From: an uncultured bacterium
GTDB taxonomy: Bacteria; Muiribacteriota; CAYSPT01
Direction: 5' to 3'
NCBI GenBank assembly: GCA_964432985.1
Contig: CAYSPT010000011.1
Location: forward strand, 21,257-85,256
Length of the DNA: 64,000 nt
Under the pieces are notes generated by a model. The model was given only the letters and a program-made list of their open reading frames with translations. It had not been told where the DNA came from and did not search any database. Of the stretch, positions 1 through 57,458 are shown piece by piece; position 1 is the first letter of the stretch; every line of letters starts with the position of its first letter. Made by a program: the position numbers and the translations under genes.

Positions 1-44
1 AAAACAGGAGTACCGTCCGCATATGCACCCGGCCGTCACTGACG

Positions 45-4215: not shown

Positions 4216-4230
4216 GAAACTGTCAGCGGC

Positions 4231-4677: not shown

Positions 4678-4763
4678 GGTACCGTTTATGGTAACACAGT
4701 GTCATAGCGCACGAAATTTACTCCTTTAACCAAACATAGTTGAAACAATCCTTCCCTTTATGC

Positions 4764-4967: not shown

Positions 4968-4996
4968 GGATAACGCTGGGAAGAAGGGACAGCGCA

Positions 4997-5052
4997 GGAA
5001 ATTGATCTAACTGAGGAAATTCATATAACTGAGAAAATATATTTTAACTAGG
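4997..5052. repeat. degenerate 18-19-bp tandem repeat x3 (ggaaattgatctaactgag ...)
   Basis: ggaaattgatctaactgag / gaaattcatataactgag / aaaatatattttaactagg, read directly. Confidence 0.7.
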
Positions 5053-5127
5053 ACATAGTGAATAGATATATTCAGCAGCAATAGAAATATATCAAAAAGC
5101 AGGGATTAGCAGGAAGCAGGTGTTTTC

Positions 5128-6789: not shown

Positions 6790-6894
6790 CAGGTCGCGGC
6801 GGTAAAGTTTGTGAAGAGTTTGGACAGGTCGCGGCAGAACAGTTTGTGAAGAATTTGGACAAGTCGCAGCAGAACAGTTTGTGAAGAATTTGGA
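6790..6894. repeat. 35-bp tandem repeat x3 (caggtcgcggcagaacagtttgtgaagaatttgga)
   Basis: Units at 6790-6824, 6825-6859 and 6860-6894, plus a partial fourth. Intergenic, between the M14 and S8 genes. Confidence 0.95.
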
Positions 6895-6922
6895 CAGGGA
6901 GTTAAGAAAGGGGATTTGAAGT

Positions 6923-9718: not shown

Positions 9719-9815
9719 ACACGATAATTGAGAAGCGAGCAGGCTGCATCGAATGATTCCTGCTTCGCCCCGTGCAATAGCCACATGCGATAAGAGATAG
9801 AGAAGAGAAATTATT

Positions 9816-10529: not shown

Positions 10530-10614
10530 CAACCGGGCAGAGGAAACGATCCGGCTTTTCAATAGACATTCAAACAACATGTGAAGGAATGAAAACAGAA
10601 ATGGAGAAAATATC

Positions 10615-11088
10615 ATGAAGAAAGCAATTTTGGTTATGGTGTTGGTTATGTGTACCGCAGCGGTCCACGCGGAGACGGTGCAACTGAAGTCCTTCGACGA
10701 AGTGATGGCGGCGCTGAATACCGGGGAACATGTGCGGGCCGTGTTTCATTACGGCAGGTGCAAGCTGATGATCGGCGACGAGGAGCACGAAGCTCCCGAC
10801 GCCGTGGGTGGCATGGCCATCGAGACCTACGAGTACTTCGCCCCGATGGTGGTCAGGAACAAGCTGGCCTACGTGGTCACCTCGGAGTCCAAACTGATCT
10901 ACCTGCCCCACCTCGGGTACGTCTACAACTACGTCAAGGTGAAGATCGCCAAAGACAATTCGGTGAAGATCATAGCCCAGTACCTGACGCCGGGAACCCT
11001 GGAGGTAAAGATGGACGAGACCTTCGTGACCAGCGTCAATGACGGCACCAACGATGTCCAGGCCGCGTACTTCTACAAGGCTCGTTAA
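10615..11088 (+). CDS. small secreted hypothetical protein
   Basis: Signal peptide MKKAILVMVLVMCTAAVHA|E. 157 aa. No family recognised with confidence. Confidence 0.55.
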   Translation: MKKAILVMVLVMCTAAVHAETVQLKSFDEVMAALNTGEHVRAVFHYGRCKLMIGDEEHEAPDAVGGMAIETYEYFAPMVVRNKLAYVVTSESKLIYLPHLGYVYNYVKVKIAKDNSVKIIAQYLTPGTLEVKMDETFVTSVNDGTNDVQAAYFYKAR

Positions 11089-11168
11089 GCACATTTCTAC
11101 CATCATCGTTAATGCAGCGGTCAGTTTCGAACTGCAGCACTGAGCATGCATCATGGAAATCCCGGTGC

Positions 11169-11227
11169 ATGCTCAATCCTGGCGTATGCTCAATCCTGGC
11201 GTATGCTCAATCCCGGCGTATGCTGGA
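11169..11227. repeat. 17-bp tandem repeat x3.5 (atgctcaatcctggcgt)
   Basis: Units at 11169-11185, 11186-11202 and 11203-11219, plus a partial unit. Intergenic. Confidence 0.9.
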
Positions 11228-11270
11228 TTTAGGCCTACGCTGACGCGGATATATGTTCACCTGTGGGGTT

Positions 11271-11310
11271 GTCTCAGATTTGGTACGATCGTCTCAAATT
11301 TGGTACAACC
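11271..11310. repeat. 20-bp tandem repeat x2 (gtctcaRatttggtacRaYc)
   Basis: gtctcagatttggtacgatc / gtctcaaatttggtacaacc, read directly. Confidence 0.8.
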
Positions 11311-11513
11311 CCTGAACAGACATCCCCCCCTTGCTTTCACATCCTGTTAAGAGTAGTCTTTTCACTACCCATTCTCAGACGGGCCGGTGGTGCTGCCGGG
11401 AGATCCCAACTCCGATCCGGCCTTTCTTTATGACCGTTTTTGTATTGCGTGCCCTCCAAACTTGCTAGTAGTATAATTGTAGAATCAGACATTTTGCTGC
11501 TCAAAGAGGGTGC

Positions 11514-22700: not shown

Positions 22701-25700
22701 TGGATGACGGACATAGTGGGGGCATATTGTTGGTTTGATAATATGTTCTCGGTATTAAACGCAGCTCCTTCATTATGCTTTACTTTCATCTTGATAGTAT
22801 CGCCAACTTGGAAATCCAGTATTCTAGTTATTTCCGTATCTACCGTGATATTTGCAGAACGTCCCAGTCCATCGGACGCAGCTATTGCAGCATCATTCAC
22901 AACAAGGTAAATCCTTACGTATTCAGAATCATCCATGACTGCAGGAGTTCTTATACTGGCCGTTATTAAGTATTTTCCAGCTTTCTGAATGGCGAATTGA
23001 TCATTTGTGTCATCACCAATTCCGCCAATATTAAAGTCAACAGTATCAAATGCGATTAATGTTGCTGAGTCGTGAGGGATACTCTGCGCCACGGTTCTGG
23101 TCATCTTTGCCATGTGGGCAGTGTTCCCAGCGGTGGCGGCCATCTCTTCCCAACCGGTGTTGGTGCCGTCACCGGAGGCCTTGCGGTAGACCTGGCCGCT
23201 GGCGTGATCAGCGTAGATGGATCCGAGCTGCGCGGTAACCGCCCCTTCGGGAGCGCCGGAACCGGTGTAGATGCCTATAGAATCTGTGTTGGTTGAATCC
23301 TCAAGACGTAGCAATTCGTTATCCTCTACATCGGTGACGGTGAGCTTCGCGCCGGGTACCGTGGTGCCGATGCCGACGTTACCTGAGGAGATGACCAACT
23401 GATCGGTGCCGGCTACCAGGCCGTTGGCTGGCAGGGTGAGGGTGCCGGTCATGGTGTCGCCGGTAGTGTTCACCCAGCTGTCCGCTGTGGCAGCCATGAA
23501 TTCGTTCACCTCTGCAGTGGCGGCGGAGCCCAGGCCCAGGGTTGCACGCTGGGCGGCGGCGTCCGCGTCGTCGAGAAGTGTCCGGCCGGCGGTAGATAGC
23601 GGCGTTACCGCATAGGTGTCGGTACCGGTGGTGTAGAGCATTTTGTCAGCCGCTGTGGTCAGACCGGATATGGACTCAAGCGCCGCGTGAAACGCCTGCA
23701 CATCGGCGCCGATGGCGTCCGTCATGATCGCACCGGCTTCCGCCACGGTAGTGGGATTAGTAACGTCGGCGCCCGCGGTGATATCGTCCAGCTTGGCGCC
23801 GTCCGCGGACAGGTCGCGCCCGTCGATGGTGCATCCGGCGGCGATCTCCACGGTGGCCCCCAGGTAGACGGTCCCGGCCACCTTCAGCTTGTAGGCACCC
23901 GGATCGGCGGTGCCGATTCCCACGCTGTCCCCGGCGGTGGTGAGAGTGACGATGCCGGTGCCTTCGGTCCAACCGCCGGCGCTGCCCGTGGGTTGAATGT
24001 CCAGGGCTTTCCACTCGCTTCCGGTATAGCCCTCGAAGGTGCCGCCGTTGAACCGGATGGTACCGGCGTTGGTACCGGTGGTGGTCCCCAGGATAAGACC
24101 ACCTTCCACATGCAGCTTGTCTGCCGGGGCCTCGGTGCCGATGCCGACATTGCCGTCCTGAACGCGTAATACTTCTGTCACACCATCATTGAGGGTTATT
24201 GATCCGGTGTCCATGCATGTCAACTTGAGCATATCGTTACCGCCACCATGGGCGATAAATGATTTAACTGCTATACCTTCATAAAAGCGAATATAGGTGT
24301 TGTAGCCGGTGTTGTTCACCAGGCTTAAACCGTCGTTGTTAGAGGTGGTAACCACCGTCAGCCTGGTGGTGGGACCTCCGGTACCAATGCTTACGGAACT
24401 TTCGGTGGTAAGAACGCCGTCACCGACACTCCACGGCGAATAGAGGTTTATCGTCCCTTCGGTAAGGTCGTCGGTGGTTTTTGCGGAAAACGCGGTATCG
24501 AATCCCCCCGAAGTGAAGTACTTGTTGGTGGAACCTTCCGACAGGTTGTCGGTGGTCTTTCCGGACAGGGCCGTTTCGAACCGTGCCTGGGTGTAGTAGA
24601 GATTATCACCTTCCGCAACCGCAGTAGTGGTCAACGTTTCCCAGGTCTTATCACCACGGAAGTACTCGGTAGTGGCCCCGGTGGTGAGAGCCGCTTCCTT
24701 GCCATCCACCGCTGTCTGCAGGCTGTCGATGTCGCCTTGAAGACCATCAAGTTCGCCCTGCAGGTCGGTCTGACTGGAAAGCGTGCCGGTGATGCCGCCC
24801 CAGGCAGTGCCCGCCTGGAAATCGGGGGTCCAGTTCTCCCACCGCGACTTGGAAGCGCTGTATTTCAGTATCTGCCCGTCACCGGGTGAGGTGAGAGCAA
24901 CATCCAATAGATCGCCGGTCTGCTTTCCGCTGAAGGCGGCGTCGAATGCCGTCTGGGTGAAATACTGGTTGGTTGAACCCTTGGTTATATCGTCGGCGGT
25001 CTTCCCGGCCAGGGACGCGTCAAACCGGTCCTGGGTGTAATAGAGGTTGTCACCTTCGGTTACCGCCGAGCTGCTCAACGTCTGCCAGGTCTTGTCGCCC
25101 CGGAAGTACTCTGTGGTGGCGCCGGCAGTGAGAGCCGCTTCCTTACCATCCACCGCCGTCTGCAGGCTGTCTATGTCACCTTGCAAACCATCAAGTTCGC
25201 CCTGCAGGTCTGTCTGGTCGGCCAGGGTGCCGGTGATTCCACCCCAGACCGCATCCGCTGTAAAATCAGGCGTCCAGTTCTCCCACTGTGATGTGGATGA
25301 ATTGTACTTCAACAGTTGTCCATCACCGGGAGTGCTGAGTGTTACATCGGAGAGATCACCGGCCTGCTTTTGACCTAAAGCGGCGTCGAATCCTGACTGG
25401 GTGAAGTACTTATTGTTGGATCCTTCCGTGATATCGTCGGTGGTCTTCCCGGTCAGGGACGCGTCGAACCGCGTCTGGGTGTAATAGAGGCTGTCGCCTT
25501 CCGCAACAGCGGTGGTGGTCAACGTCTGCCAGGTCTTGTCGCCCCGGAAGTACTCGGTGGTGGCCCCGGTGGTGAGAGCCGCTTCTTTGCCTTCCACCGC
25601 TGTCTGCAGACTGTCGATGTCGCTTTGCAGGCTGTCAAGTTCGCCCTGCAGGTCCGTCTGATCGGAAAGCGTACCGGTGATATCGCCCCAGGTGGTGTCA

Positions 25701-44935: not shown

Positions 44936-45196
44936 ATGACTGACCCAGCCAAGAATTCATTCCTACGCAAAGACGACGGTTCGGTATTTCGGCTTGAAAC
45001 AGGCCAATCCGCTTCAGCCCGTATCCGTTCGGAGCACGGAATCCAGAGCAATATTGTTATAGGCGAAGCCGCTGGTAACACCGGCAGCACTCCTCCCGGA
45101 AGCGGTGAGGCTGACGACGGCAAAACACTGACAGCCGCCAATGGCGACCGAGTCACGCTCTACTATTTAAAAACCGCCCTCACACCAAGCCAATGA
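44936..45196 (+). CDS. small hypothetical protein
   Basis: 86-aa ORF starting 16 nt after the methyltransferase stop. No recognisable motif. Competes with an antisense ORF. Confidence 0.3.
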   Translation: MTDPAKNSFLRKDDGSVFRLETGQSASARIRSEHGIQSNIVIGEAAGNTGSTPPGSGEADDGKTLTAANGDRVTLYYLKTALTPSQ

Positions 45197-45632
45197 GCCA
45201 TTTGGGCTGGACCAGGCAATAACTGCTCTGGGAGTTGAAATAATACTCGCCTCCCCGTCCCAGGAAAGTGGGGTCCGTTTTAAGAATGTATCTCCACTCA
45301 GGCGCAGCAGGTTCGATCAGGCTGCGCAGCCGGGAGATGTTCGTCTTGACGGTGCGGAAATCGATAAAGGTGTCGTAATCCGCCAGCCAGACCGCCTCAA
45401 ACAGCTCACCCGCAGTGTAGCGCCGCCCGGCGTGGGTGATTAAGAAGCAGAGCAGCTTTCCCAGAACACGCTTGCGGAATAGGCTGATCTCGCCCAGCTT
45501 CTCCTCCCGGACCAGGCGGGTTTCCAGGTCAAGCCAGAGAGAAAAGTCGCGGCAACTGCCCCGCAAGGATTCAACCTCCTTACGGGACAGCTCCTGACGA
45601 CCTCCATGGGTGTACAGGAAGTAATCACTCAT
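45180..45632 (-). CDS. OmpR/PhoB-type winged-helix transcriptional regulator lacking a receiver domain
   Basis: LLCFLITHAGRRYTAGELFEAVWLADYDTFIDFRTVKTNISRLRSLIE matches the Trans_reg_C pattern (…l..L……v.sr..L...vW…….rtvdv.I.rLR.K…). Only 150 aa, with no Asp-pocket receiver. Confidence 0.65.
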   Translation of the reverse strand: MSDYFLYTHGGRQELSRKEVESLRGSCRDFSLWLDLETRLVREEKLGEISLFRKRVLGKLLCFLITHAGRRYTAGELFEAVWLADYDTFIDFRTVKTNISRLRSLIEPAAPEWRYILKTDPTFLGRGGEYYFNSQSSYCLVQPKWLIGLV

Positions 45633-45636
45633 GCGC

Positions 45637-45990
45637 TCAGATCACCTGGCCGGGCTGGTTGAACAACAACTCCTTATCCATCACCTTGGCAATGCGCAGC
45701 AGGCAGTAATCGAGGGTGCCGTCCTGCTCGCCAGCCCGGAACATCAGCTGAACAAAAGGAGAAGAGAAAAATGCATCGTTCTCATCCGTCAGACTCTTGC
45801 CCTGCTGGATGTTCTCCAGCATCTTTCCAATAGCCTCGGTGACCAGGACTGCACCGCGCGGCGGGGAAAAATCCTCCCGTAAAGCCTCCAGGCTGACCTG
45901 AATGGGAATGCCCGAGTGCAGCATCTGGCCAAACTTCTCACAAAATAGTGACATCAGAGACATGTGTAAGCGATCCATAATAACCTCCAA
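45637..45990 (-). CDS. stand-alone T2SS-F (GspF/PilC cytoplasmic) -like domain protein
   Basis: LHSGIPIQVSLEAL...LENIQQGKSLTD...FVQLMFRAGEQDGTLDYCLLRIA resembles the T2SSF domain pattern (l.sG.pl..aL..l...v..G.sls.al...fp..v..mi..GE.sG.L...l). Only 4 nt separate it from the regulator gene. Confidence 0.5.
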   Translation of the reverse strand: MEVIMDRLHMSLMSLFCEKFGQMLHSGIPIQVSLEALREDFSPPRGAVLVTEAIGKMLENIQQGKSLTDENDAFFSSPFVQLMFRAGEQDGTLDYCLLRIAKVMDKELLFNQPGQVI

Positions 45991-46380: not shown

Positions 46381-47409
46381 ATGAATGTTTCAAGTTTATT
46401 CAGGTACCCTTTGAATTATGTCCGGCACGGAGTTTTCGGGGACAAGATATGGTTGGACGCATCGAATGTCTGCCAGTTGAAGTGCCAGTTGTGTCCCACC
46501 GGACAAGAAGAGAGTACCGCCAGTACGGTAGGATCCGGTTTGCTGGGCTTCGACAACTTCAAGACAATTGTTGATGGCAACCCATGGATTAGAACCATAG
46601 AACTTTCTAACTGGGGTGAAATATTCCTTAATCCGGAGCTGGCACCGATCGTGCGCTATGCCTGCGAAAAGAAGGTGGGCCTGCGGGCGGGCAACGGTGT
46701 GAACCTCAACTCGGCGGAGGATGAAATGCTCGAGTGTCTGGTCAAATACCGGTTCAGGTTTCTTTCCGTTTCACTGGACGGCGCCAGTCAGGAAACATAT
46801 TCGCTGTACCGGATTAATGGTCATTTCCATCGGGCCCTCGATAACATAAAGAAGATCAACGACTACAAAAAAAAGTATCGGTCTGAATTCCCGAAGCTTC
46901 GTTGGCAGTTCATCGTTTTCGGTCACAACGAGCATGAGATTCCGGCGGCACGAGAAATGGCCCGGGACCTGGGCATGCATTTCAAACTGAAACTGAACTG
47001 GGATTCGACGTTCTCACCGGTCAGGAATAAAGAACTCGTAAAAAAAGAGTTAGGGTTTGATGCCTCCTCCCGGGAAGCCTTCAAAGAGCGGTATGGCGTC
47101 GAGCACATCCTTCCCTGCCTGCAGCTCTGGTTCGAACCGACCATCAACTGGAATGGTAAACTCCTGGGCTGTTGTGACAACTGGTGGGGGGATTTCGGCA
47201 ACGTCTTCGAACAGGGTTTGACGGAAACGTTGAAAGGCAATCGATTCACTTACGCCAGGCAGATGCTCATGGGGAAAAATCCCGAACGGAACGATATGCC
47301 CTGCGTCCGGTGCCGTTACTTCCATAGCATCAAGCGCTCAGGTAAGCCGATACGGTTTCTCCTCAAGCACATTGTGGTTCGAATAAAAGACAAAATAGTC
47401 AACTATTGA
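46381..47409 (+). CDS. radical SAM enzyme with SPASM/twitch-like C-terminal Cys-rich domain
   Basis: CQLKCQLCPTG is a CxxxCxxC motif. C-terminal CLQLWFEPTINWNGKLLGCCDNWWGDFGNVF...MPCVRCRYF has the SPASM-like Cys pattern. Confidence 0.75.
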   Translation: MNVSSLFRYPLNYVRHGVFGDKIWLDASNVCQLKCQLCPTGQEESTASTVGSGLLGFDNFKTIVDGNPWIRTIELSNWGEIFLNPELAPIVRYACEKKVGLRAGNGVNLNSAEDEMLECLVKYRFRFLSVSLDGASQETYSLYRINGHFHRALDNIKKINDYKKKYRSEFPKLRWQFIVFGHNEHEIPAAREMARDLGMHFKLKLNWDSTFSPVRNKELVKKELGFDASSREAFKERYGVEHILPCLQLWFEPTINWNGKLLGCCDNWWGDFGNVFEQGLTETLKGNRFTYARQMLMGKNPERNDMPCVRCRYFHSIKRSGKPIRFLLKHIVVRIKDKIVNY

Positions 47410-47470: not shown

Positions 47471-47490
47471 CCCTAAGCGACTGGATTTGA
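47471..47490 (+). repeat. 20-nt recurring motif, copy 1 (ccctaagcgactggatttga)
   Basis: Matches 53736-53755 and 63666-63685 (cctatgcgactggatttga) with one or two mismatches. Confidence 0.7.
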
Positions 47491-47768
47491 CATAATTTTA
47501 AAAATAAAATATACTATCTATTCCAACAAAAAGCTTATTAATTAAGAATCTTATCCTTAATAAGCAAACGTTTATTTTAAGCAAAAATAATTAATTGCAA
47601 ATGTACTACTTATAACTAGCTTACAAGGTATATTCTGGTTTTTTATAAATCTACCGTTTTAAACAACGTTTTATCACTTATAAGCTTATTTTAAAAGGAA
47701 ATTTTGATAATTCATATTTAAACATTGTTTTTCAAATATAGAACGCATTCCTGGAAAGGGTTTTTATC
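47491..47768 (+). promoter_or_regulatory. ~280-bp extremely AT-rich leader/promoter region upstream of kamA
   Basis: Visibly AT-dominated in an otherwise GC-rich window. Contains the inverted repeat cttattaa-N15-ttaataag and a repeated 'aagcttatt' word. Confidence 0.5.
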
Positions 47769-49076
47769 ATGACTTCATCGCAGGCTCGGAAAATCGCCGA
47801 GCGGATTCAATCAGATGTCAGCGTATCCCACTGGCGGAATTGGCGCTGGCAGTTGAAGCATACCATCCAAAAGGTATCGTCGGTGGAACGGCTCCTGAAG
47901 ATCACCTTCAAGGCCAAGGAGCGGGCCTTGCTCGAACAAACAATCAAGAAATTTCCCCTGGCGGTAACGCCGTACTACCTCTCGCTGATCGACCGGGATG
48001 ATTTTCGCAACGATCCGATCTTCAAGCAGGCTATTCCAAACCATCACGAACTGGTCATCGAGCACAGCGACATGAAAGACCCGCTGGCGGAGGACGCGGA
48101 CAGCCCCGTACCGGGCATTACTCACCGGTATCCCGACCGGGTGCTGTTTCTGATCAGCAACATCTGCTCCATGTACTGCCGGCACTGCACCCGCAAGCGG
48201 AAAGTCGGTGACGTTGATTTCATACCCGACCGTGAGGTGATCATGCAGGGAATCGAGTACATACGAAAGACGCCGGTGATCCGGGATGTTCTGCTGTCCG
48301 GTGGCGATCCGCTCATGCTTACCGACGATTACCTGGACTGGATTTTAACCGAGTTGCATTCCATCGACCACGTGGAAGTGATACGTATCGGCACCCGCAT
48401 GCCCGTGGTCCTCCCGTACCGTGTCACGGACGATCTGGTGGCCGTGCTCAAGAAGCATCACCCGCTGTGGATCAATACCCAGTTCAACCATCCGCGGGAG
48501 CTGACCCGCTCGTCCCGGGAAGCTTTGCGCAAACTGGCCGATGCCGGTCTCCCGCTGGGCAACCAGTCGGTCTTGCTGGCCGGGATAAACGACTGTCCCC
48601 GCATCATCAAGAAGCTGGTTCACAAGCTGGTACAGAACCGGGTGCGGCCGTATTACATGTACCAATGCGACCTGGCGGAAGGGCTGACCCACTTTCGCAC
48701 TCCGGTGGGTAAAGGCCTGGATATCATCGAGGGCCTCATCGGGCACACCAGCGGTTTCGCGGTCCCCACGTATGTGGTGGATGCTCCCGAGGGCGGCGGC
48801 AAGATCCCCATCATGCCCAACTACATCATCTCCTGGTCCACCAACCGGGTGGTATTGCGCAATTACGAGGGGGTCATCACCACCTATCGGGAACCCGACT
48901 CCTACGAGCCGATCTTCTGCGACCGGAACTGTACGGATTGCGATCTTCAGCTCAAACTGGACGACGCCGAGGAGATCGAGGCTACGGGGATCGAAAAGCT
49001 CCTGTGGGATTGGGACAAAACCACGTCACTCGTGCCCGAAGACACCGATCGTATTGTCCGCCGGGACGAGGAATGA
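47769..49076 (+). CDS. kamA: lysine 2,3-aminomutase (radical SAM, PLP-dependent)
   Basis: [12 protein letters not shown] cluster motif, LLSGGDPL, and [20 protein letters not shown] with the PLP lysine. C-terminal Cys cluster CDRNCTDC. 435 aa. Confidence 0.9.
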
Positions 49077-49143: not shown

Positions 49144-50067
49144 ATGACTAATCTTGCCTCATTCATGAAGGTGATCCCCGTAACCGACAACCCGGAAGTG
49201 AAGGCCGTTTACGCCTGTGATTTTCCGGCTAGCGGTGGAGAAAACGGTTCGGCGGTGTTTGATATTTATAATCGGCGTCTGAAGCTCTACACTATCGCGC
49301 CGGCGGATTACGTGCGATGCCTGACCGGCAGGGAGGCTGGCCGGCCGGTCGATCTCCCGCCGGATATTACCAAGGTTACGGTATACGCCCGGCCAGGTGA
49401 CGGGTGGCGCCGGCATGGTTTCGAGCGCGAAGCGATCATCAGGGGCTTCTTCGCCGATGGGACCGATGCCTGGCTCTGGGCCCTGTACACCGATTTAGAA
49501 CGCGGCCGCGACCAGCGTGAAGAAGAGCATATGATAATCACTAAAATCGCCAGCGCAAAGGCACCGGCCACTCCCGAACTAAATACCGTCGAGTACACCT
49601 GCTGCCGCGCCGTGGCCGGTGACGCCGGCGAAATCGCCGCGCTGCTGCTGGAGATCTTCCCGGATTATCCCAGCCCGCTGACAGAGGAGTACATCCGGAA
49701 CCGCATCGAGAAAAAAATAAGCCATTTCCGTTTCATCCACAATAACGACGGGGCAATGGTCGCGGCGGCATCCGCGGAGATCGACCATTGCAATAAGAAC
49801 GCCGAAATGACCGACTGCGCCACCAGACCCTCGGCCAGGGGTCAGGGGCTCATGGCGTACCTGCTGTGGATGTTGGAGAACGACCTGCAGGAACTCTACA
49901 ACATTACCGACCTGTACACTATCGCCCGGGCTGACGAGGTGGGTATGAACTGCGTCTTCAGCAAGCTGGGTTATATATATGACGGCCGGCTGGTAAACAA
50001 CTGCCGTATGCCCAATGGCTGGGAGTCCATGAACGTCTGGTGCAGGCAAACCTCTCTGAACGGATGA
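49144..50067 (+). CDS. ablB: GNAT acetyltransferase, beta-lysine N6-acetyltransferase (AblB)-like
   Basis: Sits immediately downstream of kamA. GGAAGGGAG RBS before ATG 49144. C-terminal GNAT core TRPSARGQGLMAYLL. ~307 aa, a two-lobed size typical of AblB. The assignment rests on context plus recalled family features. Confidence 0.65.
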   Translation: MTNLASFMKVIPVTDNPEVKAVYACDFPASGGENGSAVFDIYNRRLKLYTIAPADYVRCLTGREAGRPVDLPPDITKVTVYARPGDGWRRHGFEREAIIRGFFADGTDAWLWALYTDLERGRDQREEEHMIITKIASAKAPATPELNTVEYTCCRAVAGDAGEIAALLLEIFPDYPSPLTEEYIRNRIEKKISHFRFIHNNDGAMVAAASAEIDHCNKNAEMTDCATRPSARGQGLMAYLLWMLENDLQELYNITDLYTIARADEVGMNCVFSKLGYIYDGRLVNNCRMPNGWESMNVWCRQTSLNG

Positions 50068-50073: not shown

Positions 50074-50628
50074 GTGAAAAACATCGCGCATGTTGATACT
50101 CGGGACGATGATTACTCTTCCCACCCGGCGCCGGCGGGCGAGGAAAATCCGGATGCCGTTTTAACTCTTCGTCAGGCGGTTCCGGGTACCGGTGACGTTG
50201 CCGACCTCCTGGCGAGTGAGCAGCAGGCCTTCGGTGATAAGAGCTTCACTATCTGGGCGGTTGAGCCGCTCTGCCGCCACGGCGCCGCGTACCTGTTCGA
50301 ATTCGATGGTAACGTCGTCGGGCACGCTCTGCTCATGAAGGAATGGACTAATCCCGCAAGCGTCTACCTGGCCAGCTTTGCCATTGACAGCCATTACCGC
50401 GGACGAGGTCTGGGCCGCCGTTCGCTCAGACTTTTGCTTGACGAACTTCGCGGGCAGGATATTGCTCTTGCAACTCTGACGGTCGACCCGGTCAACCAGT
50501 CTGCCTGCGGGTTATACCGCAGCGAGGGGTTTTATGTTAACAAGACGGTTTCCGACCAGTACGGGCCCGGTGAGGACCGGTACGTGATGGCGGTCTCGCT
50601 TTCAGCAGAAAAATGCATGGTAACCTGA
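50074..50628 (+). CDS. GNAT family N-acetyltransferase
   Basis: Motif A SHYRGRGLGRRSLRLLL and GFY near the C-terminus. The start codon is uncertain (GTG 50074). Confidence 0.7.
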   Translation: MKNIAHVDTRDDDYSSHPAPAGEENPDAVLTLRQAVPGTGDVADLLASEQQAFGDKSFTIWAVEPLCRHGAAYLFEFDGNVVGHALLMKEWTNPASVYLASFAIDSHYRGRGLGRRSLRLLLDELRGQDIALATLTVDPVNQSACGLYRSEGFYVNKTVSDQYGPGEDRYVMAVSLSAEKCMVT

Positions 50629-50662: not shown

Positions 50663-53173
50663 ATGGGCGTGAAGCTTCCAGACATCACGTTTGACGTTCA
50701 GTTCGATCGGTCGGGGATTACCAGGCAGGTGTCCCTGACGGCTTTGATTGACCAGGTGATCGAGTTACTCGAGAACCATGGGGTGGAGCCCATCATCGAC
50801 CGTAAAACATACGCCGTAATCGGGACGGGAGATGGTATCTCCCGCTTATCCCGTCTACTGGATACCGCCGGGTTTCCCCGTGACCCGCGGGGATTTTTCG
50901 GCGAGCTTTTGAAGCAGCTGCAAACCGCAGGCTGCGGACGGGCCCTGACGGTAAAGATAGGTAAGGTCGTTGTCCCTTACAACCTGCTCCTGGCTGTGCT
51001 GGAAGTGGTGATACCGGGCAACAAGTTCGTTACGGTGAAGACCGTGCGCCAGCTGGAGCGGCTCTGCAACATCAGCGTTCCGGCCGGAGAACGGCCGGCC
51101 ATGCAGCTGGTACTGGACACCTACCCGGTGCGCTTTTCCCTGCACACGCTCAGGCAGATGCACCTTTCTCCGGCGGTGGCGGCCCAGTACATGCCGTTCA
51201 TTGATGAGCTTAACCACGAGGGCCTGGTGCACACCTGGGTAGGGCAGTTCCACCGGGGTGTGCTGGAGCAGATGTACCGCAACCGGGTCATCTTCATCCT
51301 GAACATGTGGTGCCCGGTATACTGCCGCTTCTGTTTCCGCAAGCACAAGGAGTGCCGCAATCAGCGTCCACCCACCCAGGCGGCGGTCAAGGAGGCGCTC
51401 GGATACCTGCGCCAGGCAGAGCATGTCAAGGAGGTTGTCCTGACCGGCGGCGATCCGTTCATGAACAGCGCCACGCTGCGTTACGCCATCGACGGGTTGG
51501 CCAGAATCCCCCACATCAGGGTGCTCAGGATTGCCACCCGTTCGATCTCGTACTATCCCGACCTGTTCTACCGCGACGACTCTTTCTGGTTCCACTACCT
51601 GCAGCAAAAGAACTACGAGCTGCGTTATAAAAATAAGCGGATCGAAATCGCCACCCACTTCATCCATCCCGACGAGGTATCTGTTTACAGCCTGGATATC
51701 ATCAATCGGCTCACCGGAAACGGTATTCCCGTGTACGTGCAGACGCCCTTTATCGGCGGTTGCAACGACGACGGAGATATTCTGGCATCCCTGTTCAGCC
51801 GCCTGCGCGCCGCCGGGGCGGAGAATCACTACATCTTTATGCCGTGCAGCCCCCTTCAGGGCAACCGGGTGTACGGCACCACCATCGCTAGCGGTTTCGA
51901 AACCGCCCGGCGGATGCGCGCCTATCTTTCGGATCGGGCCATCCCCAAGATGTGCACCGCCACCTCAATCGGTAAGATCGACTGGAACACCAGCGGCTGG
52001 GCGGTGGAGCGGGACGAGGAGGATCCCCGGTACTTGTGGATCCGTACGCCCTATACCTACGAGTATTTCGCCTCGTTTACCCCGATCCTGCAGTTGTCGG
52101 AATTGGTACGTCCTAACTCCGGCGGCACCCTGGACGCCAGGTTCATGGTTGACGTGGGTGACGACCGGCTCCTCAAGGGCCGGGAATTCGGCCGCCGGCC
52201 GGTTCCGCGCGTGGCGGATGTGCTGCCGCACATCGTCGCCAGCGAGCGGGCGCAGCGGGATGACCTTGAATTCCTGCAGCATTTCGCGCTCAAGGACCAG
52301 CGTGTCTCACGGTCGGTGGTCGGCACGGGATCGCCGTCTATATCACGGGTCCACCTGACCAGGGTTGAGCTTGACTGCCTGGCGCCGGACCATGAGATGG
52401 GCGCCACCTTGAAATACATCAAACATGACCGCAGGATCACTGACGTGGTGCTCTTCTCGCGGCGGGGCATCATTCGGAACCTGTACCGCGTCGGGCGGAT
52501 CATACAACGCTTGAACTCCATGCGCCACGTGCAGAGCATCCGGCTGCGGAGCCTCAAGTTCACCTACCAGCCGCATGAATATACCCCGACCGCGGTAAAG
52601 AAAATAGTCTCCTTCAATCATCTCGATGTCACCGGGTCGAAACGGTTGGAAATCGAGGCCCGGTTTATGCATTCAAGCGAGTTTACCGGCGCTCATCAGC
52701 GGCTGGTCAACGCCTTCCTGCGCCGCGGGGTGACAGTCTACAACAACACGCCGCTGCTGGCGCACATCAACGACACCCCCGGGGAGATGAACCGGATAGC
52801 CTACCGATGCCGGGAACTGGGGCTTGAGTTCCATCACTGTTACGTAGCCGGGCTGCCGATCCAGATTTTCTGGGGGCACAGGCATCCGCTCGATCTTAGC
52901 CGGGTCACCCGTATCGCGAGCTTCGTGCGCAAGTACGGCAGTGGGCGTGAGATTCCCCGTTACATTATCCGAACCCCGCTGGGAGAGGTGGATTACGATC
53001 TGACATCCGAGATAGTGAAGGTCGATGACGGCGGCCGGATTATGGTCAGACTACTGCCCTACGATCTTGAATATTTCAGGAGTATGGATAAGGAATTCAC
53101 CTTGCCTGCCGGAGGCAGAATCGATGATGACGGAATGATCCTGGTCCCGGTAGACGGGCTCCGCCAAGGATAG
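50663..53173 (+). CDS. 836-aa tandem KamA-like protein: one intact radical SAM/PLP aminomutase-like domain plus one degenerate KamA-like barrel
   Basis: Domain 1 has CPVYCRFCFRKHK (51309-51340 region), LTGGDPF and SIGKIDW (Lys retained). Domain 2 (52436-53000) aligns to KamA (ITDVVLFSRRG~[24 protein letters not shown]~[28 protein letters not shown]~[16 protein letters not shown]). It has no CxxxCxxC motif and no Lys. Confidence 0.8.
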   Translation: MGVKLPDITFDVQFDRSGITRQVSLTALIDQVIELLENHGVEPIIDRKTYAVIGTGDGISRLSRLLDTAGFPRDPRGFFGELLKQLQTAGCGRALTVKIGKVVVPYNLLLAVLEVVIPGNKFVTVKTVRQLERLCNISVPAGERPAMQLVLDTYPVRFSLHTLRQMHLSPAVAAQYMPFIDELNHEGLVHTWVGQFHRGVLEQMYRNRVIFILNMWCPVYCRFCFRKHKECRNQRPPTQAAVKEALGYLRQAEHVKEVVLTGGDPFMNSATLRYAIDGLARIPHIRVLRIATRSISYYPDLFYRDDSFWFHYLQQKNYELRYKNKRIEIATHFIHPDEVSVYSLDIINRLTGNGIPVYVQTPFIGGCNDDGDILASLFSRLRAAGAENHYIFMPCSPLQGNRVYGTTIASGFETARRMRAYLSDRAIPKMCTATSIGKIDWNTSGWAVERDEEDPRYLWIRTPYTYEYFASFTPILQLSELVRPNSGGTLDARFMVDVGDDRLLKGREFGRRPVPRVADVLPHIVASERAQRDDLEFLQHFALKDQRVSRSVVGTGSPSISRVHLTRVELDCLAPDHEMGATLKYIKHDRRITDVVLFSRRGIIRNLYRVGRIIQRLNSMRHVQSIRLRSLKFTYQPHEYTPTAVKKIVSFNHLDVTGSKRLEIEARFMHSSEFTGAHQRLVNAFLRRGVTVYNNTPLLAHINDTPGEMNRIAYRCRELGLEFHHCYVAGLPIQIFWGHRHPLDLSRVTRIASFVRKYGSGREIPRYIIRTPLGEVDYDLTSEIVKVDDGGRIMVRLLPYDLEYFRSMDKEFTLPAGGRIDDDGMILVPVDGLRQG

Positions 53174-55094: not shown

Positions 55095-57458
55095 ATGAAA
55101 AAGGTACTCAATAAACTGCATCACATTCTTGCGCCGATGTTTCTCTGGTTCTTCCTGTCTTTCGTTATTGTTTCAGCGCCTGGCGCTCCGGCCGCTGAAC
55201 CATCAAATGCCGCGGGTGTACATTCATCTTTCACGGGAATACCATCAAATGCTGAGAGTGGTATTTCGCGCCCCCTGATCCTGAAGCATTTCTCAGAGAC
55301 CCTGATTAGATCATTCGAGATTTCACTCCAGGAATTCAAGAACCCGACTCTTGCAAAATGGCTTGGAACCGTCAGTTCACCAGACAGGCTGTCCGGATCG
55401 ACCCTGCACGAACTTTTTAATGAATTCAGCAGTCATCTTCTCCAGGTACTATCGGCCACTGAGCTTGCCGGTCAGGAGGATACTCTCTGGAAAGCCATGC
55501 AACGCTCGGCCAATTTTCTCCGTCTCGATGATCGCCCTCTGGAAGAGAATTTACCTCTTTTAAAAATCGAACGTTCGCTCGAAAAATCTCCGCCTTTCAC
55601 CAGAGAGATAGACAATACCAGTTCCACTGTCGTCGAAGTCAACTGGCCTGGAATCGATCACTACACAGAAGATCGTCTCGGTCCGCTGGAAGTCCTTATC
55701 AATATCCTGAATCCGGCAGACCGGGTGATTCTGACAAATACAGATCTCAGTGAAGTGCTGGCTGGAATGACTGACCTGGTCTCTCTGGTCAGATACAATC
55801 TGCCGATTTCCTCGTATGGGAAAAATATCACTCTGGCAACTAAATCCGATGGGAAAAAAATCCTCGTCCTCTCAGGTTTTGACAGCAAAGCCTACCTGCT
55901 TCATTTCGGACTGATCATAAATCGATACAGACGGATCAAAAAAAAGCAGTTCTCCATTTTTGAATTTATCGATCCGAAAAGCCTGAAAAATAGTTACACC
56001 CAGCTCCTGTTATTCGCTCAGAAGCATCCTTCCCTTTTTTCTTCCCTGGACGCCATCGTGATCGGTTACGATTCGGCATTCCGGGAGCAGTGGAAGGAAT
56101 ATGAAACCGCCGTTGCCTGCCAGAGAGGCTTCCCTGGTGAAAACTGGGGGATCAATGTATTCCGCTTCCCTGAAGGAAAAACAGCCGGAGTCCTGACAGG
56201 AGATGTGGACTATTACGGAGAAGGTCTGGTCTGTCAAATTGAGACACTGATATCCCGTTTTCCAGTTAAACAGGTTTTCTTTGGCGGATCGGGAGGGGCT
56301 GTCATTCCCCGCCCGATCTATGATATGTACTACCCTTCCGTGATAAGATCATCCAACGTAATCAGATCATCCCCCGGGTATGAAACCACCAATGTGCTGA
56401 CCGGATCAAGTGATGCGGGAACCCATGTCAGCGTGAATTCGCCGCTCTATGAAACCCCCCTGCTGCTGGCTCGGTTTCAAGCCGCCCATTACAATACCGT
56501 CGATATGGAAGCGGGTCATCTTGCCCGTCTGGCCGGAAAACACGGTATGGAAGTAGGTGTCGGAATCCTTGTCACCGATTTCCCGCCCGGTTTCGAAAGC
56601 ATTGACGTCACCTTCGCTAAGCAGAATTTCATGGCCAAGCAGAAAGCCAGGGCCGATTTTGTCCGCAAGGTGGAAGCGTATGTGAGGCGGAATGAGATAA
56701 CCTACCTGCACTTCCTGGAACGGCTGACCGGTAAGACCATACTGGAAATCAGCCGTGAAACACTCACCAGCCATCGCGATAAAATAGGCCTGTTTTCACC
56801 AGAGGAACAGGAGGTTGTCCGGCGCCTCTTCACCCTCCCCTTCCGAATTGTCGTTCGAATGAGCCCCGGACGTCTGCACTGGACACTGAAAGACAGCGCC
56901 CTGTTCTCCACCGGACTGCTAAACAGTCTCGGCAAGAAGACCGATCCGTTCACGCCCGAACTTGAAGACCAGATGTTCGGCGCCTTCGATTATATATTCG
57001 CATCATACTGCACCGATTTCGGACAGAGCATGTACGGAGATGTTATCGTCCTCCTCAAACCCGAGGAGATACTGCCCCGCAGTTGGGGTTCCCGGGCATC
57101 AGGATGGCGGGTCGCAGGTTACAAAAAAGGCTCCCCGCTGGAAGTCCACCAGAAAAACTTCCTCCGGGAAGTACTGCATCCCAGCCATTACCGTGAAGCC
57201 ATGGAACTTCAAGCCGTGTACCGTTACCGCCGTCTGAAACCTTCAACCCGGAAAATGCTCATGAACCGCCCCGTAGAAACCTGGCCTTCAATTTTGTATG
57301 AGATCGGTTTCGGCAAACTCGAATTAAAGATAAAATCGCACGTTCTAACCAGAGAGATCCAGCGCGTCATACTGCCCCCGTCAGTCCGCGGGGAGATTCC
57401 AGGCATGCTGAAACAGCATAACATCCCCTTCGAATATTACCGAACCGATGATAAATAG
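55095..57458 (+). CDS. large hypothetical protein with N-terminal anchor/signal and an internal PNP/UDP-phosphorylase-like segment
   Basis: FFGGSGGAV ... NTVDMEAGHLARLAGKHGMEVGVGILVTDFP resembles the nucleoside phosphorylase (PNP_UDP_1) motif vDME.aa.a.va......v..vsD. The flanking ~300-aa regions are unrecognised. Confidence 0.55.
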   Translation: MKKVLNKLHHILAPMFLWFFLSFVIVSAPGAPAAEPSNAAGVHSSFTGIPSNAESGISRPLILKHFSETLIRSFEISLQEFKNPTLAKWLGTVSSPDRLSGSTLHELFNEFSSHLLQVLSATELAGQEDTLWKAMQRSANFLRLDDRPLEENLPLLKIERSLEKSPPFTREIDNTSSTVVEVNWPGIDHYTEDRLGPLEVLINILNPADRVILTNTDLSEVLAGMTDLVSLVRYNLPISSYGKNITLATKSDGKKILVLSGFDSKAYLLHFGLIINRYRRIKKKQFSIFEFIDPKSLKNSYTQLLLFAQKHPSLFSSLDAIVIGYDSAFREQWKEYETAVACQRGFPGENWGINVFRFPEGKTAGVLTGDVDYYGEGLVCQIETLISRFPVKQVFFGGSGGAVIPRPIYDMYYPSVIRSSNVIRSSPGYETTNVLTGSSDAGTHVSVNSPLYETPLLLARFQAAHYNTVDMEAGHLARLAGKHGMEVGVGILVTDFPPGFESIDVTFAKQNFMAKQKARADFVRKVEAYVRRNEITYLHFLERLTGKTILEISRETLTSHRDKIGLFSPEEQEVVRRLFTLPFRIVVRMSPGRLHWTLKDSALFSTGLLNSLGKKTDPFTPELEDQMFGAFDYIFASYCTDFGQSMYGDVIVLLKPEEILPRSWGSRASGWRVAGYKKGSPLEVHQKNFLREVLHPSHYREAMELQAVYRYRRLKPSTRKMLMNRPVETWPSILYEIGFGKLELKIKSHVLTREIQRVILPPSVRGEIPGMLKQHNIPFEYYRTDDK

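What the first reader, a model, noticed from the sequence alone, without database searches (positions are those of the whole stretch)
50663..53173. 836-aa tandem KamA-like protein: an intact radical SAM/PLP aminomutase core fused to a degenerate second KamA barrel
Residues ~150-480 align with the neighbouring bona fide KamA: YPVRFSLHTL~[23 protein letters not shown]~[20 protein letters not shown]~LSGGDPL, SIGKIDW~GGGKIPI with the PLP lysine retained.

Residues ~590-780 (nt 52436-53000) align again to the KamA barrel: ITDVVLFSRRG, HVQSIRLRS, NNTPLLAHINDTPGEMNRIAYRC, REIPRYIIRTPLGEV. This second copy lacks the CxxxCxxC cluster, the GGDP SAM motif and the PLP lysine. A ~150-aa unrecognised N-terminal extension precedes both.

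Canonical 2,3-aminomutases are ~350-470 aa and act as homo-oligomers. An intragenic active plus pseudo-enzyme pair would be a covalent heterodimer. It sits beside kamA, ablB and an extra GNAT, so it may act on a different amino acid, or on the acetylated product, in an undescribed beta-amino-acid pathway.
Basis: partly seen in the sequence, partly recalled or inferred. Interest (0 to 1): 0.75.

Follow-up and report, generated by a model that had tools for sequence, protein, structure and literature searches.

The report
Tandem KamA aminomutase with dead twin
This gene encodes an uncharacterised but widespread radical-SAM/PLP aminomutase-like enzyme that has duplicated itself internally and kept one working and one catalytically dead copy, and it is repeatedly found next to the genes that make the osmolyte N-acetyl-beta-lysine.

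Summary
Window 50663-53173 (+) is one uninterrupted 836-aa ORF; the likely true start is GTG 50669, giving 834 aa.

- **Residues ~150-510:** a complete KamA-type module with CxxxCxxC, GGDP and the PLP lysine K438.
- **Residues ~525-836:** a second KamA-type module that lacks all three motifs (K→E775).
- **Residues 1-150:** match no family or solved fold.

The two halves are homologous to each other (hhalign E 2.7e-33) and closer to each other than the C-half is to KamA. This is an internal duplication, not a fusion of two different genes.

It is not an artefact or a one-off. Collinear 820-850-aa homologues occur in 387 GTDB species, mostly Desulfobacterales, also Acidobacteriota, Calditrichota, KSB1 and Gemmatimonadota. 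All carry only generic names such as 'radical SAM protein'.

No characterised KamA subfamily model reaches its cut-off. The two Asp residues that hold lysine's ε-ammonium in LAM are Ser396 and Ala433 here.

AblB-type acetyltransferase genes lie within 10 kb in 25 of 87 loci, often directly upstream and without ablA.

Best reading: a covalent active/pseudo-enzyme 2,3-aminomutase of new specificity, tied to β-lysine/N-acetyl-β-lysine metabolism. The substrate is unproven. It is a new variant of a known kind.

The parts
47487..47515 (+). sigma-70-like promoter candidate upstream of kamA (TTGACA-17-TATACT, 11 of 12)
   Evidence: consensus match only, not proof of function
47769..49076 (+). canonical lysine 2,3-aminomutase gene (ablA/kamA), 435 aa
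   Evidence: TIGR03820 766 bits (cut-off 525); Pfam Radical_SAM + LAM_C. Both lysine-binding Asp positions are retained.
49144..50067 (+). ablB-like beta-lysine N-acetyltransferase gene, 307 aa
   Evidence: TIGR03827 198 bits, just under the 205 cut-off. Start ATG 49144 with GGAAGGGAG upstream.
50074..50628 (+). small GNAT acetyltransferase gene, 184 aa, lineage-specific
   Evidence: Pfam Acetyltransf_1 E 6e-15. A homologue is found near the fusion gene only in the 73%-identical relative L005.
50663..53173 (+). tandem KamA-like gene (836-aa ORF; probable true start GTG 50669, 834 aa)
50663..51112 (+). N-terminal domain, residues 1-150, family-specific, fold unrecognised
   Evidence: No Pfam or NCBIfam hit. 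AF2 pLDDT 88. No PDB match, best E 0.32.
51113..52192 (+). catalytically complete KamA module, residues ~151-510
   Evidence: KamA-family models E 1e-29 to 2e-34. All 16 KamA ≥90%-conserved columns are retained. Foldseek top hit is LAM 2A5H, E 2e-17.
51311..51334 (+). C217-x3-C221-x2-C224, [4Fe-4S]/SAM cluster motif
   Evidence: Invariant in 57 homologues; aligned to the KamA Cys triad.
51446..51457 (+). G262-G263-D264-P265 SAM-binding motif
   Evidence: G262, G263 and D264 are invariant and P265 is ≥90% conserved; aligned to the KamA GGDP motif.
51848..51850 (+). Ser396, at the position of LAM Asp293 (lysine ε-NH3+ ligand)
   Evidence: Alignments; invariant in the family.
51959..51961 (+). 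Ala433, at the position of LAM Asp330 (lysine ε-NH3+ ligand)
   Evidence: ≥90% conserved.
51974..51976 (+). Lys438, candidate PLP Schiff-base lysine (LAM Lys337 equivalent)
   Evidence: G437-K438 are invariant; aligned to the KamA GK motif.
52193..52234 (+). inter-module linker, residues 511-524
   Evidence: The only segment with pLDDT below 50. One MAG (L042) has an in-frame stop plus restart in the corresponding linker region.
52235..53170 (+). degenerate second KamA module (pseudo-enzyme), residues ~525-836
   Evidence: KamA models E 1e-13 to 1e-4. hhalign against the N-half E 2.7e-33. No Cys triad, no GGDP; 8 of 16 KamA-conserved columns kept.
52985..52987 (+). Glu775, replacing the PLP lysine in the second module (LGEVD motif)
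   Evidence: LGE(V/I)D is found in 8 of the 14 family representatives of ≥739 aa, and none of them has a second GK.

Best explanation
The gene encodes a KamA-family radical-SAM/PLP enzyme built as a covalent pseudo-dimer. An ancestral single-barrel KamA-like module was duplicated in tandem.

**First copy (residues ~151-510).** It keeps everything needed for the 2,3-aminomutase reaction:
- the Cys triad for the [4Fe-4S] cluster that cleaves SAM to a 5'-deoxyadenosyl radical;
- the GGDP SAM motif;
- the carboxylate-binding Arg (R226);
- the PLP lysine (K438).

**Second copy (residues ~525-836).** It has lost the cluster, the SAM motif and the PLP lysine, yet remains under purifying selection.

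**Inferred roles.**
- The dead copy plays the structural role that the second subunit plays in homo-oligomeric lysine 2,3-aminomutase, namely closing and stabilising the active barrel. This would make the zinc-mediated subunit contact of LAM dispensable.
- The enzyme catalyses a reversible 1,2-amino shift on an α/β-amino acid that is not free lysine, because the two Asp residues that bind lysine's ε-ammonium are Ser and Ala here.

**Proposed substrate (least certain).** The gene sits in an operon with ablA-ablB in this window, and is recurrently adjacent to AblB-type acetyltransferases elsewhere. The most economical proposal is that it interconverts an ε-N-blocked lysine pair, Nε-acetyl-L-lysine ⇌ Nε-acetyl-β-lysine. 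That would give an alternative or salvage/catabolic branch of N-acetyl-β-lysine osmolyte metabolism.

**Shown:** domain architecture, motif retention and loss, internal duplication, family distribution, gene neighbourhood.

**Inferred:** pseudo-dimer function, aminomutase activity, substrate.
For: **Architecture and duplication**
- Single ORF.
- N-half hits KamA models at E ~1e-34 and the C-half alone at E 1e-13.
- The halves align to each other over 245 columns: hhalign probability 99.9%, E 2.7e-33; BLASTP E 1.3e-17.
- C-half against KamA gives only E 2.9e-8.
- The halves share family-specific segments absent from canonical KamA, such as WIRTPYTYEYF / LLPYDLEYF.

**Catalytic completeness**
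- 16 of 16 KamA-conserved columns are kept in the N-half and 8 of 16 in the C-half.
- C217, C221, C224, GGD, R226 and G437-K438 are invariant in 57 homologues.
- Every full-length representative has exactly one CxxxCxxC. Ten of the 14 representatives of ≥739 aa match the IGK(I/L)D pattern in the first module and eight match LGE(V/I)D in the second; none has a second GK.

**Compact two-barrel fold**
- AF2 pLDDT 89.4, pTM 0.92; only the linker is disordered.
- LAM 2A5H is the top structural match.

**Not lysine-specific**
- LAM D293 aligns to S396 and D330 to A433, whereas 20 of 43 canonical KamA-like proteins have D/D at these positions.
- All characterised subfamily HMMs score far below their cut-offs.

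**Functional link to ablB**
- An AblB-like GNAT lies within 10 kb in 25 of 87 loci from several phyla.
- The arrangements differ: ablA-ablB-FUS; ablB>FUS without ablA in ≥10 loci; and convergent layouts.
- One such neighbour passes the TIGR03827 equivalog cut-off (296 against 205 bits).
- The window genes are tightly spaced (6-nt and 34-nt gaps) behind one strong promoter-like site.
Against: - No biochemical data exist for any family member. No paper on it was found in six literature searches.
- The specific substrate is pure inference from two residue replacements plus neighbourhood.
- About 70% of loci have no ablB within 10 kb.
- In Desulfobacterales the best-conserved partners are a divergent IclR regulator, a cytoplasmic M23-like protein directly downstream, a PotA/PotD-like ABC transporter, a proline-racemase-family protein, an Amidohydro_3 enzyme and a class-I aminotransferase. 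These could point to a different substrate.
- The roles of LAM Asp293, Asp330 and Arg134 and of the zinc site are cited from my knowledge of Lepore et al. 2005. That paper could not be read here.
- The C-half keeps some conserved polar residues (R627, E663, N703, D704, R762), so it may bind a ligand rather than being purely structural.
Confidence: 0.55

Rival explanations
1. It is simply an alternative lysine 2,3-aminomutase, an AblA isozyme, that supplies β-lysine to AblB. Lysine's ε-ammonium would be bound by other acidic residues: family-specific invariants such as E387, D424 or D440, or residues of the second module.
For: - In ≥10 Desulfobacterales loci an AblB-type gene sits directly upstream on the same strand, with no canonical ablA within 10 kb.
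- That AblB passes the TIGR03827 equivalog cut-off.
- The α-carboxylate Arg and the PLP lysine are retained.
Against: - Both Asp positions that are D/D in all ten AblA sequences examined (window plus loci) are Ser/Ala here, and these are invariant or ≥90% conserved.
- The TIGR03820 score is 157 against a cut-off of 525.
- In this window and at least 9 other loci the gene co-occurs with a bona fide ablA, often in the same operon, which would be redundant.
Confidence: 0.2
2. It is an aminomutase for an unrelated amino acid within an uptake/catabolic regulon. That regulon comprises an IclR regulator, a PotA/D-like ABC importer, a proline-racemase-family enzyme, an Amidohydro_3 deacylase, a class-I aminotransferase and an M23-like protein. 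The ablAB linkage would be secondary.
For: - 28 loci have a divergent IclR gene.
- 27 loci have the M23-like gene; in 26 it lies within 500 bp of the gene (median 13 nt downstream), and in 25 it is on the same strand.
- About 30 loci have the transporter/ProRac/Amidohydro_3 block (families).
- Specificity residues are small and neutral.
Against: - That cluster is confined to Desulfobacterales-type genomes and is absent from the window.
- In several of those clusters an AblB-type gene is itself a member (AblB< AT_I< ... IclR< FUS>), so the two contexts are not independent.
- Outside Desulfobacterales the recurring partner is ablA-ablB.
Confidence: 0.2
3. It is not an aminomutase: either a KamA-fold radical SAM enzyme doing different chemistry, or a non-catalytic or regulatory protein.
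For: - It fails the curated cut-off even of the general KamA subfamily model TIGR00238 (134 against 199 bits).
- It has a unique N-terminal domain of unknown fold.
- The C-half retains conserved polar residues.
Against: - All residues diagnostic of SAM cleavage and PLP binding are invariant in the N-half.
- Every characterised KamA-family member is, to my knowledge, a 2,3-aminomutase.
Confidence: 0.05
4. It is an assembly or sequencing artefact: two adjacent KamA-like genes joined by a frameshift or missed stop.
For: One MAG (L042) has an in-frame TAG in the linker followed by an ATG 9 codons later. Several ~280-350-aa C-half-only proteins exist among metagenome representatives.
Against: - The ORF in the window is continuous.
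- More than 120 collinear 820-850-aa homologues at ~50% identity are known.
- 387 species are hit, including complete genomes of cultured strains: Desulfosarcina alkanivorans WP_155316076.1 and Desulfopila WP_136815077.1.
Confidence: 0.01

Closest known systems
Lysine 2,3-aminomutase KamA/AblA (Clostridium subterminale LAM, PDB 2A5H; TIGR03820)
   Same: - Radical-SAM (βα)6 barrel with CxxxCxxC, GGDP, the carboxylate-binding Arg and the PLP lysine.
- Best sequence match in PDB (E 5e-21) and best fold match (E 2e-17).
- Encoded next to ablB.
   Different: - About twice as long, with the barrel duplicated in tandem and the second copy inactivated.
- A new 150-aa N-terminal domain.
- No LAM_C/zinc-Cys region.
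- Asp293 and Asp330 equivalents are Ser and Ala.
- HMM score 157 against a cut-off of 525.
Glutamate 2,3-aminomutase (Eam, TIGR04368) and arginine 2,3-aminomutase (BlsG type, TIGR04468)
   Same: KamA-family members whose specificity differs from lysine through changes at the same pocket positions. The arginine model gives the best E-value for both halves.
   Different: - Scores are 141 against 650 and 164 against 600, far below the cut-offs.
- Those enzymes are single-barrel.
- The pocket residues here (Ser/Ala) are neither the Lys/Asn I recall for Eam nor acidic.
Uncharacterised single-barrel KamA-like proteins (340-390 aa, e.g. P0175, P0176, P0196, P0202)
   Same: - They share the two-residue deletion before the PLP lysine (T-x--IGK) and non-Asp pocket residues.
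- They are the closest single-barrel-length (340-390 aa) hits of the C-half query.
   Different: One barrel only, and none reaches any curated equivalog cut-off. They lack the N-terminal domain and the family-specific C-terminal extension.
Active enzyme/pseudo-enzyme tandem duplications in general
   Same: A catalytically dead paralogue retained as an obligate structural partner of the active copy.
   Different: In the six literature searches run here I found no such arrangement described for the KamA family.

Membership tests
KamA family radical SAM/PLP aminomutases (TIGR00238 level) | CxxxCxxC motif binding the [4Fe-4S] cluster | tested here: met
   C217, C221 and C224 are invariant. The motif is present once per protein, in the N-half only.
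KamA family radical SAM/PLP aminomutases (TIGR00238 level) | GGDP SAM-binding motif | tested here: met
   G262-G263-D264 invariant and P265 ≥90% conserved in the N-half; FSRRG in the C-half.
KamA family radical SAM/PLP aminomutases (TIGR00238 level) | PLP Schiff-base lysine in a G-K motif (LAM Lys337) | tested here: met
   G437-K438 are invariant in the N-half; the C-half has G774-E775.
KamA family radical SAM/PLP aminomutases (TIGR00238 level) | Score above the curated model cut-off (199.2 bits) | tested here: not met
   134.1 bits for the whole protein and 111 bits for the N-half alone. It is a divergent outlier of the family.
KamA family radical SAM/PLP aminomutases (TIGR00238 level) | SAM- and PLP-dependent 2,3-amino shift activity | not testable with these tools
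   Needs anaerobic reconstitution and an activity assay.
Lysine 2,3-aminomutase AblA/KamA (TIGR03820) | Equivalog cut-off of 525.4 bits | tested here: not met
   157 bits. The neighbouring kamA scores 766.
Lysine 2,3-aminomutase AblA/KamA (TIGR03820) | Two Asp residues binding the lysine ε-ammonium (LAM Asp293, Asp330; roles recalled from Lepore et al. 2005) | tested here: not met
   S396 and A433 occupy these positions. All ten AblA sequences examined (window plus loci) have D/D.
Lysine 2,3-aminomutase AblA/KamA (TIGR03820) | C-terminal LAM_C domain with zinc-binding cysteines | tested here: not met
   No PF12544 hit. The AblA Cys-rich segment aligns to gaps in both halves.
Glutamate 2,3-aminomutase (TIGR04368) | Equivalog cut-off of 650 bits | tested here: not met
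   141 bits.
Arginine 2,3-aminomutase (TIGR04468) | Equivalog cut-off of 600 bits | tested here: not met
   164.5 bits.
EF-P β-lysylation protein EpmB (TIGR03821) | Equivalog cut-off of 369.3 bits | tested here: not met
   120.9 bits.
Tandem active/pseudo-enzyme (internal duplication) | The two halves are homologous to each other, and only one retains the catalytic motifs | tested here: met
   hhalign E 2.7e-33 over 245 columns. Motif census.
Tandem active/pseudo-enzyme (internal duplication) | The halves pack like the subunits of the ancestral homo-oligomer | not tested

The most novel reading that the evidence does not exclude
The family is a previously unrecognised class of 2,3-aminomutase that works on an N-acylated substrate, Nε-acetyl-lysine ⇌ Nε-acetyl-β-lysine. 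Its catalytically dead internal twin replaces the second subunit and may act as an effector-binding or gating module. If so, it would define a second, ablA-independent route to the osmolyte N-acetyl-β-lysine, or the first known catabolic route from it, in sulfate reducers and other sediment bacteria.
Probability: 0.2. Interest if true: 0.8.

Novelty: new variant of a known kind. Interest (0 to 1): 0.6.

Why it matters
- **Enzyme family.** KamA-type aminomutases are textbook radical-SAM/PLP enzymes, and only lysine, glutamate and arginine specificities have been characterised.
- **Natural experiment.** A conserved family in 387 species that hard-wires an active/pseudo-enzyme pair into one chain tests what the partner subunit contributes to radical control in these enzymes. 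It is also a tractable target for structure and enzymology.
- **Osmolyte metabolism.** Its recurrent linkage to ablB suggests an unrecognised step in N-acetyl-β-lysine or β-amino-acid metabolism. The host lineages, Desulfobacterales, Acidobacteriota and Calditrichota, are abundant in marine and freshwater sediments. Osmolyte synthesis and turnover are poorly mapped there.
- **Annotation.** These proteins are labelled 'radical SAM protein' or, in JGI, 'lysine 2,3-aminomutase'. The latter is probably wrong.

Tried and rejected
- **Artefactual fusion.** Rejected: the ORF is continuous and hundreds of collinear homologues exist, including in complete genomes.
- **Riboswitch or leader upstream of the operon.** An Rfam E-value search of 44-56 kb found only one sub-threshold chance hit.
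- **N-terminal domain identity.** Pfam and NCBIfam, hhalign against both barrels, and a separate AF2 model with Foldseek against PDB all gave no significant match.
- **Horizontal-transfer island.** The operon is GC-rich relative to its immediate flanks. However, GC varies from 0.44 to 0.62 across the whole window, so this is not informative.
- **Literature.** Six full-text searches found nothing on a tandem or long KamA family. Lepore 2005 and Behshad 2006 are not held, so LAM residue roles are from memory.
- **Desulfobacterales cluster genes in the window.** A tblastn search for IclR, M23-like, ProRac, Amidohydro_3, AT_I and ABC genes found only ablB.
- **AblB phylogeny.** AblB copies next to the fusion without ablA form their own clade. 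This tracks taxonomy, so it does not discriminate between functions.
- **Superposition on the LAM dimer.** I could not superpose the AF2 two-barrel model, because no coordinates are exposed by the tools.
Full report
**1. The observation**

Window 50663-53173 (+) is one uninterrupted ORF of 836 codons. The identical public protein is called at 834 aa (P0001). It starts at GTG 50669, which lies 6 nt after an AAGGAG, whereas the ATG at 50663 abuts it.

Scanning the whole protein against NCBIfam gives two matched stretches for each KamA-family model. When the protein is cut in three:
- Residues 151-520 hit arginine, lysine and glutamate 2,3-aminomutase, EpmB and the generic KamA model at E 1e-29 to 2e-34.
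- Residues 521-836 alone hit the same models at E 1e-13 to 1e-4, always over the back two-thirds of the model (about positions 140-329 of 351). That is the part after the Fe-S loop.
- Residues 1-150 hit nothing in NCBIfam or Pfam.

Pairwise BLASTP against the kamA gene next door gives E 6e-25 for the N-half and 2.9e-8 for the C-half.

**2. Anatomy**

*The two halves are homologous.* A profile-profile comparison of the halves, built from 57 homologues, gives probability 99.9%, E 2.7e-33, 245 aligned columns and 23% identity. BLASTP of N-half against C-half gives E 1.3e-17. The halves therefore resemble each other more than the C-half resembles an ordinary KamA.

They also share segments that canonical KamA lacks. 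One is the long insert after the third strand. Another is the C-terminal WIRTPYTYEYF / LLPYDLEYF extension. This is an internal tandem duplication of a family-specific module, not a fusion of two unrelated genes.

*Motif retention.* Sixteen columns are ≥90% conserved across the canonical KamA-like set.
- The N-half keeps all 16: the three Cys, GG-P, R289, P299, E338, Q360, N368-D369 and G437-K438.
- The C-half keeps 8.
- The C-half specifically lacks the Cys triad, has S599-R600-G602 for GG-P, N695 for the conserved Gln, and E775 for the PLP lysine.

*Conservation.* In 57 homologues at ~50% identity, C217, C221, C224, R226, G262-G263-D264 and G437-K438 are invariant. The C-half has its own invariants: R562, R627, E663, N703, R717, E722, Q734, R756 and S760-G761-R762. 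Mean column conservation is 0.76 for the active module and 0.65 for the dead one. The dead module is therefore under purifying selection.

*Model.* An AlphaFold2 model built on this alignment is confident (pLDDT 89.4, pTM 0.92). Only residues 511-524 are disordered. Its best PDB match is lysine 2,3-aminomutase 2A5H (E 2e-17), followed at much weaker scores by other radical-SAM enzymes such as AprD4, viperin-like enzymes and PFL activase.

*N-terminal domain.* Modelled separately (pLDDT 88), the N-terminal 152 residues have no significant PDB neighbour (best E 0.32).

**3. Not an artefact, and not rare**

The homology search returned more than 120 collinear proteins of 813-867 aa at 49-54% identity, plus one at 73%.

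A scan of one genome per GTDB species found 387 species with a relative. Most are Desulfobacterales and other Thermodesulfobacteriota. Others are Acidobacteriota/Aminicenantes, Calditrichota, KSB1, Gemmatimonadota and a few more. Cultured strains are included: Desulfosarcina alkanivorans PL12 and Desulfopila sp. IMCC35006.

In RefSeq and UniProt these are 'radical SAM protein', 'hypothetical protein' or 'Radical SAM core domain-containing protein' (WP_155316076.1, WP_136815077.1). JGI calls some 'lysine 2,3-aminomutase'.

Searching the C-half alone against 1.84 billion cluster representatives gives only 42 clusters at E ≤ 1e-30. The complete ones are ~740-850 aa. Every full-length one has a single CxxxCxxC. 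Ten of the 14 representatives of ≥739 aa match IGK(I/L)D in module 1, eight match LGE(V/I)D in module 2, and none has a second GK.

One MAG (L042) carries an in-frame TAG in the linker, followed nine codons later by an ATG with a GGA-rich stretch upstream. This may be a natural split into two polypeptides or a sequencing error. Several 280-350-aa C-half-only representatives exist but may be fragments.

**4. What it is not**

No characterised subfamily model comes near its curated cut-off:

| Model | Score (bits) | Cut-off (bits) |
|---|---|---|
| AblA | 157 | 525 |
| Eam | 141 | 650 |
| Arginine 2,3-aminomutase | 164.5 | 600 |
| EpmB | 121 | 369 |
| Generic TIGR00238 | 134 | 199 |

In LAM, to my knowledge of the 2A5H paper (not readable here), Asp293 and Asp330 bind lysine's ε-ammonium, Arg134 binds the carboxylate and Lys337 binds PLP. 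A zinc held by Cys268' and Cys375/377/380 ties two subunits together.
- In the alignments, Arg134 corresponds to R226 and Lys337 to K438.
- Asp293 corresponds to invariant S396 and Asp330 to A433 (≥90%).
- All ten AblA sequences from the window and related loci have D/D at these positions.
- The Cys-rich LAM_C segment aligns to gaps in both halves, and Pfam LAM_C is not detected.

The closest single-barrel relatives are uncharacterised 340-390-aa KamA-like proteins. They share the two-residue deletion before the PLP lysine and non-Asp pocket residues, and they reach no equivalog cut-off.

**5. Genomic context**

*In the window.* The gene is last in a tight co-directional array behind a strong promoter-like site at 47487-47515:
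- kamA/ablA, 47769-49076, a true TIGR03820 member;
- ablB, 49144-50067;
- a 184-aa GNAT, 50074-50628;
- the fusion gene, 50663-53173.

No Rfam element was found.

*Across 87 loci with a full-length homologue*:
- An AblB-like GNAT lies within 10 kb in 25 loci.
- Arrangements include MarR-ablA-ablB-FUS (Holophagae, Thermoanaerobaculia, Acidobacteria), ablA-SSF-ablB-FUS, and convergent FUS> <ablB <ablA.
- In ≥10 Desulfobacterales loci the arrangement is ablB>FUS directly, with no ablA in the 10-kb flank.
- One such AblB passes the TIGR03827 equivalog cut-off (296 against 205 bits).

*In Desulfobacterales* the most conserved arrangement is AblB< AT_I< Amidohydro_3< ProRac< ABC (PotA/PotD-like)< IclR< | FUS> M23-like>. 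About 28 loci have the divergent IclR. The M23-like protein is 221 aa and cytoplasmic with intact HxxxD/HxH motifs. It occurs in 27 loci, within 500 bp of the gene in 26 (median 13 nt downstream) and on the same strand in 25. None of these extra genes is in the window. The small GNAT is found only in the 73%-identical relative.

**6. Mechanism**

*Shown.* The protein has one chemically complete and one gutted KamA module in a fixed compact arrangement. The pocket is altered at both lysine-specificity positions. Linkage to AblB-type acetyltransferases is conserved across phyla.

*Inferred.*
- (a) The first module is an active SAM/PLP 2,3-aminomutase.
- (b) The second module substitutes for the partner subunit of homo-oligomeric LAM. 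This would explain the loss of the zinc/LAM_C contact. Family-specific residues invariant in both halves (E387/E722, R425/R762) or, for D440/D777, invariant in one half and ≥90% conserved in the other, are candidates for reciprocal interface contacts.
- (c) The substrate is not free lysine.

Because ablA and the fusion gene share an operon in this window and, in five other loci, simple redundancy is unattractive. Because ablB>FUS pairs occur without a nearby ablA, the enzyme plausibly supplies the amino-shift step on a side-chain-neutralised lysine (Nε-acetyl-lysine ⇌ Nε-acetyl-β-lysine). Ser and Ala in place of the two Asp would suit an acetamido group.

In the Desulfobacterales cluster, a class-I (α-amino-acid) aminotransferase and an amidohydrolase could then process Nε-acetyl-α-lysine. 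I rate this specific substrate at about 0.2-0.25. The general statement (active/pseudo KamA aminomutase of new specificity connected to β-lysine/N-acetyl-β-lysine metabolism) I rate at about 0.55.

Rivals: an AblA isozyme (0.2), an unrelated catabolic aminomutase (0.2), non-aminomutase chemistry (0.05), and an artefact (≤0.01).

**7. Novelty and score**

The enzyme kind is known (KamA-family radical-SAM/PLP aminomutase). The conserved tandem active/dead architecture, the new N-domain and the non-lysine pocket are not described in any library or paper I could search. I file it as a new variant of a known kind, interest 0.6.

It is a solid, well-delimited enzymology target with a plausible link to osmolyte metabolism, but function remains unproven.

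Noticed in passing
L043, L052, L056, L059, L062, L065, L070, L072, L077, L083 and others (locus coordinates ~1-13000): A conserved Desulfobacterales gene cluster surrounds the fusion gene: AblB-like GNAT, class-I aminotransferase, Amidohydro_3, a proline-racemase-family protein and a PotA/PotD-like ABC transporter. A divergent IclR lies on one side and a cytoplasmic M23-like 221-aa protein directly downstream. It looks like an uptake/catabolic regulon of unknown substrate.
   Followed up: partly
L070:12449-13111 (+) and equivalents: The M23-like partner has intact HxxxD/HxH zinc motifs and no obvious signal peptide. Its best NCBIfam match is the middle segment (407-570) of the 1015-aa 'hypothetical protein' model PRK06148. 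This is an unexplained domain relationship.
   Followed up: no
L042:11480-11700: An in-frame TAG sits in the inter-module linker of one MAG's homologue, followed 9 codons later by an ATG with a GGA-rich stretch upstream. It would split the protein into a 529-aa active half and a 303-aa dead half. Either a natural split or an error.
   Followed up: partly
window 50663-50671: The first ATG abuts the AAGGAG Shine-Dalgarno sequence. The GTG two codons later (50669) has normal spacing and is the start used in the public gene call (834 aa).
   Followed up: yes
window 50074-50628 (+): The extra 184-aa GNAT gives weak NCBIfam hits to RimI and to streptothricin N-acetyltransferases Sat3/Sat4, which acetylate a β-lysine moiety (E 4e-5 and 1.5e-3). 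These are probably generic GNAT cross-hits.
   Followed up: no
window 46381-47409 (+): A radical SAM/SPASM protein (342 aa) lies just upstream of the operon promoter, with weak similarity to tungsten-cofactor oxidoreductase maturase. It has lower GC than the operon and there is no evidence that it belongs to it.
   Followed up: no
window 55095-57458 (+): A 787-aa protein with only a sub-threshold PNP_UDP_1 (phosphorylase superfamily) hit and no NCBIfam match. Function unknown.
   Followed up: no
window 16781-28246 (-); L005:14247-18502: A giant 3821-aa ORF. The 73%-identity relative's contig carries a 3834-aa FG-GAP/Cadherin/Laminin_G protein and the same small Trans_reg_C and T2SSF-fragment genes (window 45180-45990). 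The two contigs are therefore syntenic relatives.
   Followed up: no
P0175, P0176, P0185, P0196, P0202, P0206, P0212, P0217: A diverse set of single-barrel KamA-like proteins (340-390 aa) has non-Asp pocket residues and the same shortened T-x--IGK motif. None reaches any curated aminomutase cut-off. This is a reservoir of uncharacterised KamA specificities.
   Followed up: partly
L002/L009:6249-9496; L001:1-7055: In some loci the fusion gene neighbours other osmolyte-type genes: GMC oxidoreductase plus aldehyde dehydrogenase (choline to betaine type), a BCCT transporter and SSF symporters. This is consistent with, but does not prove, an osmoadaptation role.
   Followed up: no
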